Below are positions 6,503 to 54,082 of a DNA stretch of 64,000 bases, in pieces. Made by a program: the position numbers and the translations under genes. How positions within the stretch are numbered: the stretch's first letter is position 1; each line of letters begins with the position of its first letter. A model generated the notes under the pieces. The model was not told the origin of the DNA and ran no database searches. It saw only the letters and a program-made list of their open reading frames with translations. The stretch lies in assembly GCF_054482595.1 (NCBI RefSeq), contig NZ_CM137008.1; one strand, 5' to 3'.

Positions 6503-7510
6503 GTGAAAAAGCAATGGATTGTTGGCACGGCGCTGCTTGTGTTGATGACTGGTAATGTCTGGGCAGATGGCGAACCGCCAACTGAAAATATCTTAAAAGC
6601 TCAATTCAAAAAGCAGTATCACGGCATTCTCAAGCTTGATGCCATCACCTTAAAAAATCTTGATGCTAAGGGTAATCAGGCCACCTGGTCAGCGGAAGGC
6701 GATGTCTCTTCCAGTGACGATCTCTATACCTGGGTCGGTCAGTTGGCAGATTACGAACTGCTCGAACAGACCTGGACGAAAGATAAACCGGTAAAATTCT
6801 CGGCGATGTTAACCAGTAAAGGAACGCCCGCGTCTGGCTGGTCGGTGAACTTTTACTCTTTTCAGGCGGCAGCCAGCGATCGTGGGCGGGTGGTCGACGA
6901 TATCAAAACGAATAATAAATATCTGATCGTGAATAGCGAAGATTTCAATTATCGCTTTAGTCAGCTTGAGTCTGCGTTGAATACCCAGAAGAACTCGATT
7001 CCTGCGCTGGAAAAGGAAGTGAAAGCGCTTGATAAGCAAATGGTGGCGGCGCAGAAAGCAGCGGATGCATATTGGGGAAAAGATGCAAACGGTAAGCAAA
7101 TGACCCGCGAAGACGCCTTTAAAAAAATTCACCAACAGCGTGATGAGTTTAATAAACAGAATGATAGCGAGGCGTTCGCGGTTAAATATGACAAAGAGGT
7201 TTATCAACCGGCGATTGCGGCATGTCATAAACAGAGTGAAGAGTGTTATGAAGTGCCGATTCAGCAGAAGCGAGATTTCGATATCAACGAACAACGGCGA
7301 CAGACTTTTCTGCAATCACAAAAACTTAGCCGTAAATTGCAGGATGACTGGATAACGCTCGAAAAAGGGCAATATCCTTTAACGATGAAAGTTTCAGAAA
7401 TAAACAGTAAAAAAGTCGCGATTTTGATGAAAATTGACGATATCAACCAGGCTAATGAACGCTGGAAAAAAGATACCGAACAACTGCGGCGCAATGGGGT
7501 GATTAAGTAA
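6503..7510 (+). CDS. yggM: DUF1202 protein YggM (GTG start)
   Basis: 335-aa ORF with signal peptide matching YggM. Confidence 0.9.
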   Translation: MKKQWIVGTALLVLMTGNVWADGEPPTENILKAQFKKQYHGILKLDAITLKNLDAKGNQATWSAEGDVSSSDDLYTWVGQLADYELLEQTWTKDKPVKFSAMLTSKGTPASGWSVNFYSFQAAASDRGRVVDDIKTNNKYLIVNSEDFNYRFSQLESALNTQKNSIPALEKEVKALDKQMVAAQKAADAYWGKDANGKQMTREDAFKKIHQQRDEFNKQNDSEAFAVKYDKEVYQPAIAACHKQSEECYEVPIQQKRDFDINEQRRQTFLQSQKLSRKLQDDWITLEKGQYPLTMKVSEINSKKVAILMKIDDINQANERWKKDTEQLRRNGVIK

Positions 7511-36774: not shown

Positions 36775-36895
36775 TTGCCTGATGCGCTACGCTTATCAGG
36801 CCTACACGTATCCTGCAATATATTGAATTCGCAGGTTTTTGTAGGCCGGATAAGGCGTTCACGCCGCATCCGGCATGACAAAGCGCACATTGATA
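36775..36895. repeat. BIME (two inverted REP units)
   Basis: gcctgatgcgctacgcttatcaggcctac ... gtaggccggataaggcgttcacgccgcatccggca. Confidence 0.8.
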
Positions 36896-51457: not shown

Positions 51458-52690
51458 ATGGCAAAGGTATCGCTGGAGAAAGACAAGATTAAGTTTCTGC
51501 TGGTAGAAGGAGTGCACCAAAAGGCGCTGGAAAGCCTTCGTGCAGCTGGTTACACCAACATCGAATTTCACAAAGGCGCGCTGGATGATGAACAATTAAA
51601 AGAATCCATCCGCGATGCCCACTTCATCGGCCTGCGATCCCGTACCCATCTGACTGAAGACGTGATCAACGCCGCAGAAAAGCTGGTCGCTATTGGCTGT
51701 TTCTGTATAGGAACAAACCAGGTTGATCTGGATGCGGCGGCAAAGCGCGGGATCCCGGTATTTAACGCACCGTTCTCAAATACGCGCTCTGTTGCGGAGC
51801 TGGTGATTGGCGAACTGCTGCTGCTATTGCGCGGCGTGCCGGAAGCCAATGCTAAAGCGCACCGTGGCGTGTGGAACAAACTGGCGGCGGGTTCTTTTGA
51901 AGCGCGCGGCAAAAAGCTGGGTATCATCGGCTACGGTCATATTGGTACGCAATTGGGCATTCTGGCTGAATCGCTGGGAATGTATGTTTACTTTTATGAT
52001 ATTGAAAATAAACTGCCGCTGGGCAACGCCACTCAGGTACAGCATCTTTCTGACCTGCTGAATATGAGCGATGTGGTGAGTCTGCATGTACCAGAGAATC
52101 CGTCCACCAAAAATATGATGGGCGCGAAAGAAATTTCACTAATGAAGCCCGGCTCGCTGCTGATTAATGCTTCGCGCGGTACTGTGGTGGATATTCCGGC
52201 GCTGTGTGATGCGCTGGCGAGCAAACATCTGGCGGGGGCGGCAATCGACGTATTCCCGACGGAACCGGCGACCAATAGCGATCCATTTACCTCTCCGCTG
52301 TGTGAATTCGACAACGTCCTTCTGACGCCACACATTGGCGGTTCGACTCAGGAAGCGCAGGAGAATATTGGCCTGGAAGTTGCGGGTAAATTGATCAAGT
52401 ATTCTGACAATGGCTCAACGCTCTCTGCGGTGAACTTCCCAGAAGTCTCGCTGCCACTGCACGGTGGGCGTCGTCTGATGCACATCCACGAAAACCGTCC
52501 GGGCGTGCTAACTGCGCTGAACAAAATCTTCGCCGAGCAGGGCGTCAACATCGCCGCGCAATATCTACAAACTTCCGCCCAGATGGGTTATGTGGTTATT
52601 GATATTGAAGCCGACGAAGACGTTGCCGAAAAAGCGCTGCAGGCAATGAAAGCTATTCCGGGTACCATTCGCGCCCGTCTGCTGTACTAA
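51458..52690 (+). CDS. serA: D-3-phosphoglycerate dehydrogenase
   Basis: 410-aa ORF matching SerA. Confidence 0.97.
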   Translation: MAKVSLEKDKIKFLLVEGVHQKALESLRAAGYTNIEFHKGALDDEQLKESIRDAHFIGLRSRTHLTEDVINAAEKLVAIGCFCIGTNQVDLDAAAKRGIPVFNAPFSNTRSVAELVIGELLLLLRGVPEANAKAHRGVWNKLAAGSFEARGKKLGIIGYGHIGTQLGILAESLGMYVYFYDIENKLPLGNATQVQHLSDLLNMSDVVSLHVPENPSTKNMMGAKEISLMKPGSLLINASRGTVVDIPALCDALASKHLAGAAIDVFPTEPATNSDPFTSPLCEFDNVLLTPHIGGSTQEAQENIGLEVAGKLIKYSDNGSTLSAVNFPEVSLPLHGGRRLMHIHENRPGVLTALNKIFAEQGVNIAAQYLQTSAQMGYVVIDIEADEDVAEKALQAMKAIPGTIRARLLY

Positions 52691-52711
52691 TTCCCCTTCT
52701 CTGACAATCAA

Positions 52712-52741
52712 CGGGCAGGTCACTGACTTGCCCGTTTTTTT
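52712..52741 (+). terminator. Intrinsic terminator of serA
   Basis: cgggcaggt-cactg-acttgcccg followed by TTTTTTT. Confidence 0.8.
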
Positions 52742-52879
52742 ATCCCTTCTCCACACCGTTGCCGCGTTGCGCATTCTACTTTGCGAGTCTGCTCCAGAAA
52801 ATAAATCAAAGTCAGATCAATGCGTTGTGTTTATTTAATGGGGATTTACGATGGCGGGACAGCACAGGGCTGTAACGGT

Positions 52880-53018
52880 AAAGCCCTCACCGAAGCGAGG
52901 GCTTGAAGGAGAAGGGTTATGATGCGACTTGTCATCATACTGATTGTACTGTTACTCATAAGTTTCCCAGCTTATTAACAGTCAGTCTCAGGGGAGGAGT
53001 AATCCTCCCTTACCCTTA
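52880..53018 (-). ncRNA. Sib-type antisense sRNA (antitoxin), copy 1; boundaries approximate
   Basis: Minus-strand -35 TTGACA (53053-53048), 17-bp spacer, -10 TAATTT (53030-53025); transcript would run antisense across the ibs ORF; 3' end estimated from the usual Sib length. Confidence 0.45.
52919..52978 (+). CDS. Ibs-family type I toxin, 19 aa (variant copy, Pro17)
   Basis: Read by hand: ATGATGCGACTTGTCATCATACTGATTGTACTGTTACTCATAAGTTTCCCAGCTTATTAA = MMRLVIILIVLLLISFPAY*; SD GAAGGAG upstream; below the ORF-track size cutoff. Confidence 0.75.
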   Translation: MMRLVIILIVLLLISFPAY

Positions 53019-53271
53019 CTCACTAAATTAGGTTAAAGAATCAACGATGTCAATCAGGGCGATGCGGGATGTATCGCCCTGAACCGATCATTTGATAGAC
53101 ACTTCATCGCCCACGTTTACTGCCGTAATTAATCCCTTATCCCTGCAATGTGTGTCTGTCTTACATGACGTTTTACGAGTGCGCTCGAAGAAAAAATTTA
53201 AAGGTAGATCAATGCGTTGTGCTTATTTAAAGAGAGTTTACGATGGCAGGGCAGCATGGGGCTGTAACGGT

Positions 53272-53410
53272 AAAGCCCTCACCGAAGCGAGGGCTTGAAG
53301 GAGAAGGGTTATGATGCGACTTGTCATCATACTGATTGTACTGTTACTCATAAGTTTCAGCGCTTATTAACAGTCAGTCACAGGGGAGGAGCAATCCTCC
53401 CTTACCCTTA
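53272..53410 (-). ncRNA. sibC: SibC-type antisense sRNA (antitoxin), copy 2; boundaries approximate
   Basis: Same promoter-like elements as copy 1, shifted by 392 bp (-35 at 53445-53440, -10 at 53422-53417); serA-ygfA intergenic position corresponds to K-12 sibC/rygC. Confidence 0.45.
53311..53370 (+). CDS. ibsC: Ibs-family type I toxin, 19 aa (IbsC-like, Ser17)
   Basis: Read by hand: MMRLVIILIVLLLISFSAY*; same SD and context as copy 1; matches my recollection of K-12 IbsC. Confidence 0.75.
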   Translation: MMRLVIILIVLLLISFSAY

Positions 53411-53470
53411 CTCACTAAATTAGGTTAAAGAATCAACGATGTCAATCAGGGCGATGCAGGTGTGTCGCCC

Positions 53471-54019
53471 TCACCACTCCCAGACTTTCGACGGTGTAAC
53501 CACCGCAGGAAGAGGGATATCCCACTCTTCAACGGGGAGTTTTTCCACCAACTGACAATCATGCGCATAACCCACCGGTTGCATTTTATAGTGCTGCCAG
53601 TTTTGTAAGGTCCGATCGTAAAAACCTCCGCCCATTCCCAGGCGCTGACCGTACTCATCAAAGGCGACCAGCGGTGTGATCAACACGTCTAATCGGGAAA
53701 GGGGTAGCACGTCACGCACATCCAGTTTTGGCTCATGGATCTTCAACCTGTTCATCACCAGTTCACTTTGCGGATGGTAATTCAGGAACAGCAAATTACC
53801 GGCACTAAAGGGATGCAAAACTGGAAGATATACGCGCTTACCGGCGCGCCAGAGTTGTTCTATAAGCGGCTGGGTGTCGAGTTCTCCATCAAAAGAGAGG
53901 AATACAGCGACCGTATGTGCCATCACCACCGGGGGATAAGTCATCATCCGGGTAGCGGCTTGTTGACCCATTTCCTGCTGTTGTTCCGGCGTTAACGTAC
54001 GACGACGTTGCCGAATCAT
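53471..54019 (-). CDS. ygfA: 5-formyltetrahydrofolate cyclo-ligase family protein
   Basis: ORF 53471..54217; start assumed at the internal Met (MIRQRRRTLTPEQQQEMGQQAATRMM...) giving 182 aa; an alternative in-frame ATG at 54073 gives 200 aa; the ORF N-terminal extension overlaps ssrS. Confidence 0.85.
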   Translation of the reverse strand: MIRQRRRTLTPEQQQEMGQQAATRMMTYPPVVMAHTVAVFLSFDGELDTQPLIEQLWRAGKRVYLPVLHPFSAGNLLFLNYHPQSELVMNRLKIHEPKLDVRDVLPLSRLDVLITPLVAFDEYGQRLGMGGGFYDRTLQNWQHYKMQPVGYAHDCQLVEKLPVEEWDIPLPAVVTPSKVWEW

Positions 54020-54082
54020 TTTGCGGATTTCTTGTCGGGATAATGTCAGTGGGAGTTCTGGTAGTTGCGTCATGGCTGGTGC

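What the first reader, a model, noticed from the sequence alone, without database searches (positions are those of the whole stretch)
52750..53474. Tandem duplication of the sib/ibs type I toxin-antitoxin locus between serA and ygfA, with diverged toxin copies
Two roughly 392-bp direct repeats each carry a 19-codon ORF with a strong SD, MMRLVIILIVLLLISFPAY and MMRLVIILIVLLLISFSAY, matching the Ibs membrane toxins, plus minus-strand promoter-like elements for an antisense Sib RNA. I recall K-12 having a single copy (sibC/ibsC) at this position. The two copies differ at toxin residue 17 (Pro vs Ser) and in the region the antisense RNA would pair with, which may make each antitoxin specific to its own toxin. 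Neither ORF appears in the six-frame track.
Basis: partly seen in the sequence, partly recalled or inferred. Interest (0 to 1): 0.62.

Follow-up and report, generated by a model that had tools for sequence, protein, structure and literature searches.

The report
Two tandem ibsC/sibC toxin–antitoxin modules
The region holds two intact, adjacent copies of the well-known E. coli Ibs/Sib small-toxin/antisense-RNA module between serA and fau, an arrangement found in about a third of complete E. coli genomes and already annotated in RefSeq, so it is real but ordinary.

Summary
The window is E. coli, 100% identical to strain XH990. Two 392-bp-spaced repeats lie between serA and fau (ygfA). Each carries a 19-codon ibs ORF (52919-52978, …SFPAY; 53311-53370, …SFSAY, identical to K-12 IbsC). 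Each also carries a 141-nt antisense Sib RNA on the minus strand (Rfam RF00113, 138 and 135 bits).

It is not new. RefSeq annotates both toxins as ibsC. The two-copy state occurs in about 1857 of 5426 complete E. coli genomes (34%). It also occurs in a divergent Escherichia lineage. K-12's single copy looks like a deletion derivative (unit-1 flank joined to a unit-2 body).

The two Sib RNAs differ at 5 of 141 positions. Three are consecutive (+49-51). They equal ibs codon 17 and sit in the apical loop of recognition domain TRD1. These are the same three nucleotides that Han et al. 2010 swapped to retarget SibC.

TRD2 (+99-115) is identical in both copies. Han et al. showed that either domain alone suffices for repression. 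I therefore predict the two antitoxins cross-repress and are not insulated.

Novelty: already known. Interest: low.

The parts
52780..53068 (.). Repeat unit 1 (serA-proximal), the conserved part of the 392-bp period
   Evidence: the repeat finder family D1, reference copy; alignment of the two units.
53172..53460 (.). Repeat unit 2 (fau-proximal), 91% identical to unit 1 without gaps
52847..52859 (+). ibs-1 promoter -10 (TACGAT, 52847-52852) and inferred transcription start (52859)
   Evidence: Read from the sequence. The start is placed by homology. Han 2010 report that ibsC mRNA has an 18-nt 5' overhang beyond the SibC 3' end and is 159 nt long. This is inferred, not mapped in this strain. 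The generic promoter scan found nothing at its thresholds.
52859..53017 (+). ibs-1 mRNA (inferred, 159 nt)
   Evidence: Homology to the K-12 ibsC transcript defined in PMC2943612; coordinates.
52919..52978 (+). ibs-1 ORF, 19 codons plus stop, MMRLVIILIVLLLISFPAY
   Evidence: RefSeq CDS WP_071525914.1, named 'type I toxin-antitoxin system toxin IbsC', in the identical XH990 locus.
52967..52969 (.). Variable triplet of unit 1: ibs codon 17 (CCA, Pro), which is Sib-1 nucleotides +49-51 (UGG) in the TRD1 apical loop
   Evidence: It is the same position as G49CU51 of SibC, mutated in PMC2943612.
52877..53017 (-). Sib-1 antisense antitoxin RNA, 141 nt (+1 = 53017)
   Evidence: Ends placed by identity to the annotated K-12 sibC ends. 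Rfam RF00113 scores 138.3 bits. The fold has z = -5.2.
53025..53053 (-). Sib-1 promoter: -35 TTGACA (53053-53048), 17-nt spacer, -10 TAATTT (53030-53025)
   Evidence: Read from the sequence. It matches the K-12 sibC upstream sequence in oligo SibCKO1 of PMC2943612. It is covered by the 5' part of the Rfam model.
53069..53171 (.). Inter-unit spacer, a strongly diverged copy of the region upstream of unit 1, and the diagnostic of the two-copy state
   Evidence: About 65% identical to the unit-1 upstream region. Present in 1857 of 5426 E. coli genomes. Absent from K-12.
53239..53251 (+). ibs-2 promoter -10 (TACGAT, 53239-53244) and inferred transcription start (53251)
   Evidence: As for unit 1.
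53251..53409 (+). ibs-2 mRNA (inferred, 159 nt)
   Evidence: Homology to K-12 ibsC mRNA.
53311..53370 (+). ibs-2 ORF, MMRLVIILIVLLLISFSAY, identical to K-12 IbsC
   Evidence: RefSeq WP_010723220.1 appears both in XH990 and in a K-12-like strain.
53359..53361 (.). Variable triplet of unit 2: ibs codon 17 (AGC, Ser), which is Sib-2 +49-51 (GCU)
53269..53409 (-). Sib-2 antisense antitoxin RNA, 141 nt, one mismatch (+30) from K-12 SibC
53417..53445 (-). Sib-2 promoter (TTGACA, 17-nt spacer, TAATTT)
   Evidence: at the 392-nt offset from unit 1.

Best explanation
The region holds two complete, adjacent ibsC/sibC-type type I toxin-antitoxin modules in the serA-fau intergenic region of an E. coli chromosome.

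In each module a weak plus-strand promoter makes a roughly 159-nt ibs mRNA. This mRNA encodes a 19-residue hydrophobic inner-membrane toxin. A strong minus-strand promoter (TTGACA, 17-nt spacer, TAATTT) makes a 141-nt Sib RNA that is fully complementary to that mRNA.

Sib contacts the mRNA through either of two recognition domains. TRD1 is the apical loop of a hairpin and pairs with the end of the ORF. TRD2 is a single-stranded stretch and pairs with the ribosome-binding region. Pairing spreads from these contacts, the mRNA is degraded, and the toxin is kept off. These steps are established for K-12 SibC/ibsC and are inferred here from near-identity.

The two modules differ in the overlapped 141 nt at only 5 positions. 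Three of them are ibs codon 17, which is Sib +49-51 in the TRD1 loop. TRD2 is identical. I therefore infer that each Sib RNA can still silence both ibs mRNAs through TRD2. The pair would then be at most half-insulated and largely redundant.

The arrangement is an old, common polymorphism, not a new duplication. Single-copy strains such as K-12 most likely arose by a 392-bp deletion through recombination between the repeats.
For: Identity of the modules:
- Rfam RF00113 matches twice at 138 and 135 bits.
- Sib-2 differs from K-12 SibC at 1 of 141 positions and Sib-1 at 4 of 141.
- Ibs-2 is identical to K-12 IbsC and Ibs-1 differs at one residue.
- RefSeq names both CDSs ibsC in the 100%-identical XH990 locus.
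- The synteny rpiA-serA-[ibs]-fau-ssrS-zapA is the same as in K-12.

Structure:
- Both Sib RNAs fold into the same multi-hairpin shape (z = -5.2 and -5.8).
- Positions +48-55 form an apical loop.

Mechanism and specificity (Han et al. 2010, PMC2943612):
- TRD1 is +46-68 and TRD2 is +99-115.
- Changing G49CU51 retargets TRD1.
- Changing one TRD leaves repression of ibsC intact. Changing both abolishes it.
- In the window, TRD2 is identical in the two copies.
- Cross pairs keep uninterrupted complementarity from +52 to +141.
- The TRD1 duplex energy is -38 kcal/mol for cognate pairs and -26 kcal/mol for cross pairs.

Population data:
- The spacer is present in 1857 of 5426 genomes.
- The Sib core is present in 5424 of 5426 genomes, at 7294 places.

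Age of the arrangement:
- Two copies with an orthologous spacer occur in strain SCPM-O-B-8794, whose serA is only 92.5% identical.
- The unit-2 upstream region is about 65% identical to the unit-1 upstream region. The same region in E. albertii is 80% identical to unit 1.

Deletion origin of single copies: four sampled single-copy E. coli genomes have the unit-1 5' flank joined to a unit-2-type start region and body.
Against: - No expression or toxicity data exist for this strain. Promoters and transcript ends are placed by homology only, and the generic promoter scan returned no site at its thresholds.
- The cross-repression prediction rests on plasmid overexpression assays in K-12. It involved a different TRD1 replacement (UGC, versus UGG here). 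At chromosomal RNA levels the loss of TRD1 contact could matter.
- E. albertii, Escherichia sp. E1V33, Citrobacter and Pseudocitrobacter have a single copy at this locus. So the age of the duplication, and the direction of change in some lineages, is inferred and not proven.
- The 'chimera' argument for single-copy alleles rests on few diagnostic sites.
Confidence: 0.85

Rival explanations
1. The two modules are functionally insulated. The codon-17/TRD1-loop difference makes each Sib RNA repress only its own ibs mRNA, as reported for most of the five K-12 paralogues.
For: The 3-nt difference lies exactly at SibC G49CU51 in the TRD1 loop, a demonstrated specificity determinant. Four alleles at codons 16-17 account for 98% of all copies in E. 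coli. Almost no two-copy genome carries the same allele twice. Three consecutive changes among 5 differences in 141 nt has p of about 0.003 under random placement.
Against: TRD2 is identical in the two copies. Han et al. found that SibC with only TRD1 changed still repressed ibsC, and that loss of repression required changing both TRDs. Cross pairs retain 90 contiguous complementary nucleotides. The observation that copies almost never share an allele reflects only about three main haplotypes, so it amounts to few independent events.
Confidence: 0.25
2. One of the two units is a decaying, non-functional relic, and only the K-12-like unit 2 works.
For: Chromosomal type I loci such as hok/sok are often degenerate (statement in PMC2887945). 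The unit-1 region around the inferred ibs transcription start carries substitutions relative to unit 2.
Against: In both units the ORF, Shine-Dalgarno sequence, ibs -10 element, Sib promoter, Sib terminator hairpin and Sib fold are all intact. Both units are kept in about 1857 genomes and in a divergent Escherichia lineage. Pro17 also occurs in K-12 IbsB and IbsE.
Confidence: 0.05
3. The repeat is a recent strain-specific duplication or an assembly artefact of a single sibC locus.
For: K-12 has one copy. The cores of the two units are 96% identical.
Against: The same arrangement occurs in 1857 complete genomes. The spacer is about 35% diverged from its presumed source and varies between 84% and 97% identity among strains. 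A second Escherichia lineage has it too.
Confidence: 0.02

Closest known systems
ibsC/sibC of E. coli K-12 (type I toxin-antitoxin; Fozo et al. 2008; Han et al. 2010, PMC2943612; Rfam RF00113)
   Same: It has the same locus (serA-fau) and the same architecture, with a 19-aa toxin ORF fully overlapped by a 141-nt antisense RNA. Unit 2 encodes the identical toxin, and its Sib RNA matches K-12 SibC at 140 of 141 positions. The Sib promoter -35 and -10 hexamers, the terminator, TRD1 and TRD2 are the same.
   Different: There are two units here where K-12 has one. Unit 1 has UGG at Sib +49-51 where K-12 SibC has GCU (Pro17 in place of Ser17), plus G18A. K-12's single copy looks like a unit-1-flank/unit-2-body recombinant.
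Tandem sibA-sibB and sibD-sibE pairs of K-12
   Same: They are two ibs/sib modules head to tail in one intergenic region, with a similar period (335 and 376 nt in K-12; 392 nt here).
   Different: The K-12 tandem partners are much more diverged from each other and differ in both TRD1 and TRD2 (sequences). That fits their reported mutual non-cross-reactivity. The window pair differs in TRD1 only.
The common two-copy serA-fau haplotypes of other E. coli (e.g. KSC1031, strain 138, O157:H7)
   Same: They have the same two-unit layout and the same flanks. RefSeq annotates them as 'ibsC' plus 'Ibs family toxin'.
   Different: Their allele pairs are FG+FP or FG+LP at codons 16-17, with an additional TRD2 difference at +113. 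The window's FP+FS pair is rare, found in about 50-55 genomes.
SibC1d, the engineered TRD1-swap mutant of Han et al. 2010
   Same: It is SibC changed only at +49-51 with TRD2 intact. Apart from G18A, this is the relationship of the window's Sib-1 to SibC.
   Different: The engineered triplet is UGC (SibD type) and the natural one here is UGG. Sib-1 also carries G18A in another hairpin loop.

Membership tests
Sib RNA (Rfam RF00113) antitoxin | Sequence and structure match to the curated covariance model above its gathering score | tested here: met
   138.3 and 134.6 bits against a gathering score of 56, with full-length model matches 1-147.
Sib RNA (Rfam RF00113) antitoxin | Own promoter and terminator giving an RNA of about 140 nt antisense to ibs | tested here: met
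   TTGACA, 17-nt spacer and TAATTT, with +1 and 3' end identical to the annotated K-12 sibC ends. There is a terminal GC hairpin followed by UUU. This was tested by sequence only. Transcripts were not observed.
Ibs type I toxin | An 18-19-residue hydrophobic ORF with a Shine-Dalgarno sequence, on the strand opposite Sib and wholly inside the overlap | tested here: met
   ORFs 52919-52978 and 53311-53370 lie inside Sib 52877-53017 and 53269-53409. AAGGAG sits 7 nt upstream.
Ibs type I toxin | Sequence identity to characterised Ibs peptides | tested here: met
   Ibs-2 is 19/19 identical to K-12 IbsC and Ibs-1 is 18/19. RefSeq names both IbsC. HMM libraries could not be used because the peptides are below the 20-30 residue minimum.
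Ibs type I toxin | Overexpression depolarises the membrane and arrests growth, and the cognate Sib relieves it | not testable with these tools
   Shown for K-12 IbsC/SibC in the literature (PMC2943612; review PMC8309996). Not shown for this strain or for the Pro17 variant of IbsC.
ibsC/sibC locus (orthology) | Position between serA and fau/ygfA | tested here: met
Mutually insulated Sib/ibs paralogue pair (as for K-12 SibC versus SibD) | Both recognition domains, TRD1 and TRD2, differ between the two modules | tested here: not met
   TRD1 differs at +49-51. TRD2 (+99-115) is identical. Han et al. needed both changed to lose repression.

The most novel reading that the evidence does not exclude
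The Sib +49-51 loop triplet, which is ibs codon 17, is a hypervariable specificity switch kept different between tandem copies by selection. The window's rare FP+FS haplotype differs in TRD1 only. The common haplotypes differ in TRD1 and also at TRD2 position +113. The window's haplotype could therefore be a natural intermediate in the stepwise insulation of duplicated antisense toxin-antitoxin modules. It would allow the independence of TRD1 and TRD2 to be tested at native expression levels.
Probability: 0.2. Interest if true: 0.3.

Novelty: already known. Interest (0 to 1): 0.1.

Why it matters
It matters little beyond correct annotation. The Ibs/Sib family, its tandem organisation, its variable copy number among strains and its two-domain recognition mechanism are all published. 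Both toxin genes are already annotated in RefSeq.

Three points are useful:
- K-12 is the minority-derived state at this locus in the sense that it lacks a unit which a third of E. coli strains carry.
- NCBI's PGAP annotation pipeline lists the toxins but not the Sib antitoxin RNAs.
- This particular allele pair is a natural version of a published TRD1-only mutant, so it could serve as a convenient test case for antisense cross-talk.

Tried and rejected
- The generic sigma-70 promoter scan of 52650-53520 returned no promoter and only the serA terminator. The Sib and ibs promoters fall below its hexamer thresholds, so I placed them by homology.
- Fozo et al. 2008 (PMC2597788), Fozo/Hemm/Storz 2008 (PMC2593563) and Mok et al. 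2010 (PMC3009890) are not held. I could therefore not cite a published statement about two copies at serA-ygfA specifically, nor the mutational tolerance of Ser17.
- Peptide HMM searches (Pfam, NCBIfam) are impossible for 19-residue proteins because of the tools' length minima.
- I considered counting zero-copy genomes with a deletion-junction query. I rejected it because the tool would join flanking pieces into one place. I counted genomes that have the Sib core instead.
- I considered that O157:H7 generally lacks the locus, based on TR01. I rejected this because other O157:H7 genomes have two copies.
- The 68-aa ORF at 53092-53298 spans the spacer and the ibs-2 leader. I treated it as a mechanical ORF.

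Full report
**What is in the sequence**

The stretch 52691-53470 is the intergenic region between serA (51458-52690, plus strand) and fau/ygfA (53471-54073, minus strand). ssrS (6S RNA) and zapA lie beyond fau. The 1001-nt stretch spanning this intergenic region (52600-53600) is 100% identical to E. coli strain XH990.

A direct repeat of 289 nt at 91% identity is present, at 52780-53068 and 53172-53460, with a 392-nt period. The alignment shows a nearly identical core of about 230 nt. Upstream of the core the similarity decays progressively.

Each unit carries a 19-codon ORF preceded by AAGGAG. These are 52919-52978 (MMRLVIILIVLLLISFPAY) and 53311-53370 (MMRLVIILIVLLLISFSAY).

**Identity of the two units**

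Rfam's SIB_RNA model (RF00113) matches the minus strand twice, full length. The scores are 138.3 and 134.6 bits against a gathering score of 56. I used the annotated ends of K-12 sibC (NC_000913.3) to place the two RNAs. They run from 53017 to 52877 (Sib-1) and from 53409 to 53269 (Sib-2), each 141 nt.

Sib-2 differs from K-12 SibC at one position (+30). Sib-1 differs at four positions (+18 and +49-51). Ibs-2 is identical to K-12 IbsC, and Ibs-1 differs only at residue 17. RefSeq annotates both ORFs in XH990 as 'type I toxin-antitoxin system toxin IbsC' (WP_071525914.1 and WP_010723220.1). It annotates no Sib ncRNA there.

The Sib promoter reads TTGACA, a 17-nt spacer, then TAATTT, with +1 seven nucleotides further on. 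It is intact in both units. It matches the K-12 sequence quoted in an oligonucleotide of Han et al. 2010.

Han et al. report that ibsC mRNA is 159 nt long and has an 18-nt 5' overhang beyond the SibC 3' end. By homology the ibs transcription starts fall at 52859 and 53251, each behind a TACGAT -10 element. These promoter and transcript assignments are inferences from homology. A generic consensus scan found nothing at its thresholds.

**How it most likely works**

The following is established for K-12 SibC/ibsC (Han et al. 2010, PMC2943612; review PMC8309996):
- IbsC is a 19-residue membrane toxin that depolarises cells when overproduced.
- SibC is fully complementary to the ibsC mRNA.
- SibC contacts the mRNA through TRD1 or TRD2. 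TRD1 (+46-68) is the P5 hairpin loop and targets the end of the ORF. TRD2 (+99-115) is single-stranded and targets the translation-initiation region.
- Pairing spreads from these contacts and the mRNA is degraded. RNase III cleavage of the complex was shown in vitro.
- The two domains act independently, and either one suffices.

Both window Sib RNAs fold into the same shape, with z-scores of -5.2 and -5.8. Positions +48-55 form an apical loop. Given 97-99% identity to SibC, I infer the same mechanism for both units.

**The difference between the copies, and cross-talk**

Within the 141-nt overlap the two units differ at +18, +30 and +49-51. The triplet is exactly ibs codon 17 (CCA Pro versus AGC Ser). 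It lies in the TRD1 loop. Three consecutive changes among five differences has p of about 0.003 if the differences were placed at random.

Han et al. changed these same nucleotides (G49CU51 to UGC) to convert TRD1 from ibsC to ibsD specificity. That mutant still repressed ibsC. Repression was lost only when TRD2 was changed as well.

In the window TRD2 is identical in both units. Cross pairs keep uninterrupted complementarity from +52 to +141. The TRD1 duplex energy drops from about -38 to -26 kcal/mol in cross pairs, while the TRD2 duplex energy is unchanged.

I therefore predict that each Sib RNA can silence both ibs mRNAs via TRD2. The caveat is that the published assays used plasmid overexpression.

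**Population and evolutionary context**

The inter-unit spacer (53066-53175) occurs in 1857 of 5426 complete E. coli genomes. The Sib core occurs in 5424 genomes at 7294 places, so about 1870 genomes have two copies and only two genomes have none. O157:H7 strain TR01 is one of the two. It carries a deletion that removes both units. The window's exact haplotype (at least 99% identity) is found in about 50-55 genomes.

Allele-specific 30-mers over codons 16-17 gave these counts:

| Codons 16-17 | Residues | Places |
|---|---|---|
| TTC AGC | FS (K-12 type) | 2167 |
| TTC CCA | FP | 2789 |
| TTC GGA | FG | 1844 |
| TTG CCA | LP | 346 |

Together these four alleles account for 98% of all copies.

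In the sampled common two-copy haplotypes, unit 1 is FG and unit 2 is FP or LP. They also differ at +113 in TRD2. The window's FP+FS pair is unusual in differing in TRD1 only.

Almost no genome carries the same allele twice. This reflects about three haplotypes, so it is weak evidence for selection.

**Age and direction of change**

A scan of one genome per species found ibs/sib at serA-fau in several taxa. A single copy is present in E. albertii, Escherichia sp. E1V33, a Citrobacter and Pseudocitrobacter.

Two copies are present in 'E. coli' SCPM-O-B-8794. Its serA is only 92.5% identical to the window's, compared with 98-99.5% within E. coli. Its second-unit upstream region is orthologous to the E. 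coli spacer, at 84-89% identity.

The unit-2 upstream region is only about 65% identical to the unit-1 upstream region. That is more diverged than E. albertii is from E. coli unit 1 in the same region (80%). The duplication is therefore old.

All four sampled single-copy E. coli genomes, including a K-12-like strain, carry the unit-1 5' flank. It is joined, within an 11-nt identical block at the ibs -10 element, to a unit-2-type start region and body. This fits a 392-bp deletion by recombination between the repeats. The inference rests on few diagnostic sites, so I hold it with moderate confidence.

**Comparison with what is known, and verdict**

The following are all published (PMC2943612; PMC2887945; Rfam RF00113):
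- the family itself;
- its tandem organisation within one intergenic region;
- its variable copy number among strains (for example, seven Ibs genes in O157:H7 Sakai);
- the TRD1/TRD2 recognition logic;
- the idea that variable TRDs evolved to discriminate between paralogues.

Every testable defining feature of Ibs/Sib membership is met. The defining feature of a mutually insulated pair, that both TRDs differ, is not met.

The finding is real and was correctly identified, but it is already known and already annotated. The only mildly interesting angle is that this rare allele pair resembles a published TRD1-only mutant. Interest is low.

Noticed in passing
L004 (E. coli O157:H7 TR01) 1592-1798, corresponding to window 52691-53470: This strain has a deletion running from just after the ibs-1 -10 region to the Sib-2 promoter. 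It removes both modules. Only 2 of 5426 complete E. coli genomes lack any copy at this locus, and other O157:H7 genomes have two.
   Followed up: partly
window 52967-52969 and 53359-53361; loci L002-L015: ibs codons 16-17 (Sib +49-52) are multi-allelic across E. coli. The alleles are FS, FP, FG and LP, at 2167, 2789, 1844 and 346 copies. The rest of the 141-nt overlap is 94-100% conserved. Outgroups carry yet other codons at these positions (E. albertii TGC CCG, Citrobacter TTC GCA).
   Followed up: partly
window 53069-53171 (inter-unit spacer): The spacer and the unit-2 upstream region are only 84-97% identical among two-copy E. coli strains. The unit-1 upstream region is 97-100% identical among the same strains. 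This is unusually deep allelic divergence for orthologous intergenic DNA within the species.
   Followed up: partly
L001 (XH990) compared with L007 (K-12 MG1655): NCBI PGAP-annotated records list the ibs toxin CDSs but not the Sib antitoxin ncRNAs. The K-12 reference record annotates sibC. Toxin-only annotation could mislead automated toxin-antitoxin surveys.
   Followed up: no
L014 (O25:H4 CU568-3) fau, corresponding to window 53473-53900: The fau 3' part of this ST131-type strain is only 92.3% identical to the window's, compared with about 98% for other E. coli. This suggests a divergent or recombined allele next to the ibs/sib locus.
   Followed up: no
window 36798-36840 (-): An Rfam match to ES036 (CssrF) sRNA, RF02751, at 42.5 bits against a gathering score of 37.6.
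   Followed up: no
window 53057-53079 and 53449-53470: A GC-rich inverted repeat (GGGCGA…TCGCCC) lies immediately after the fau stop codon. It is duplicated with the unit, so the spacer contains a second, orphan copy of what is probably the fau/ibs terminator hairpin.
   Followed up: no
E. coli genome search: One of the 7294 Sib-core matches lies on a record typed as a plasmid. All the others are chromosomal.
   Followed up: no
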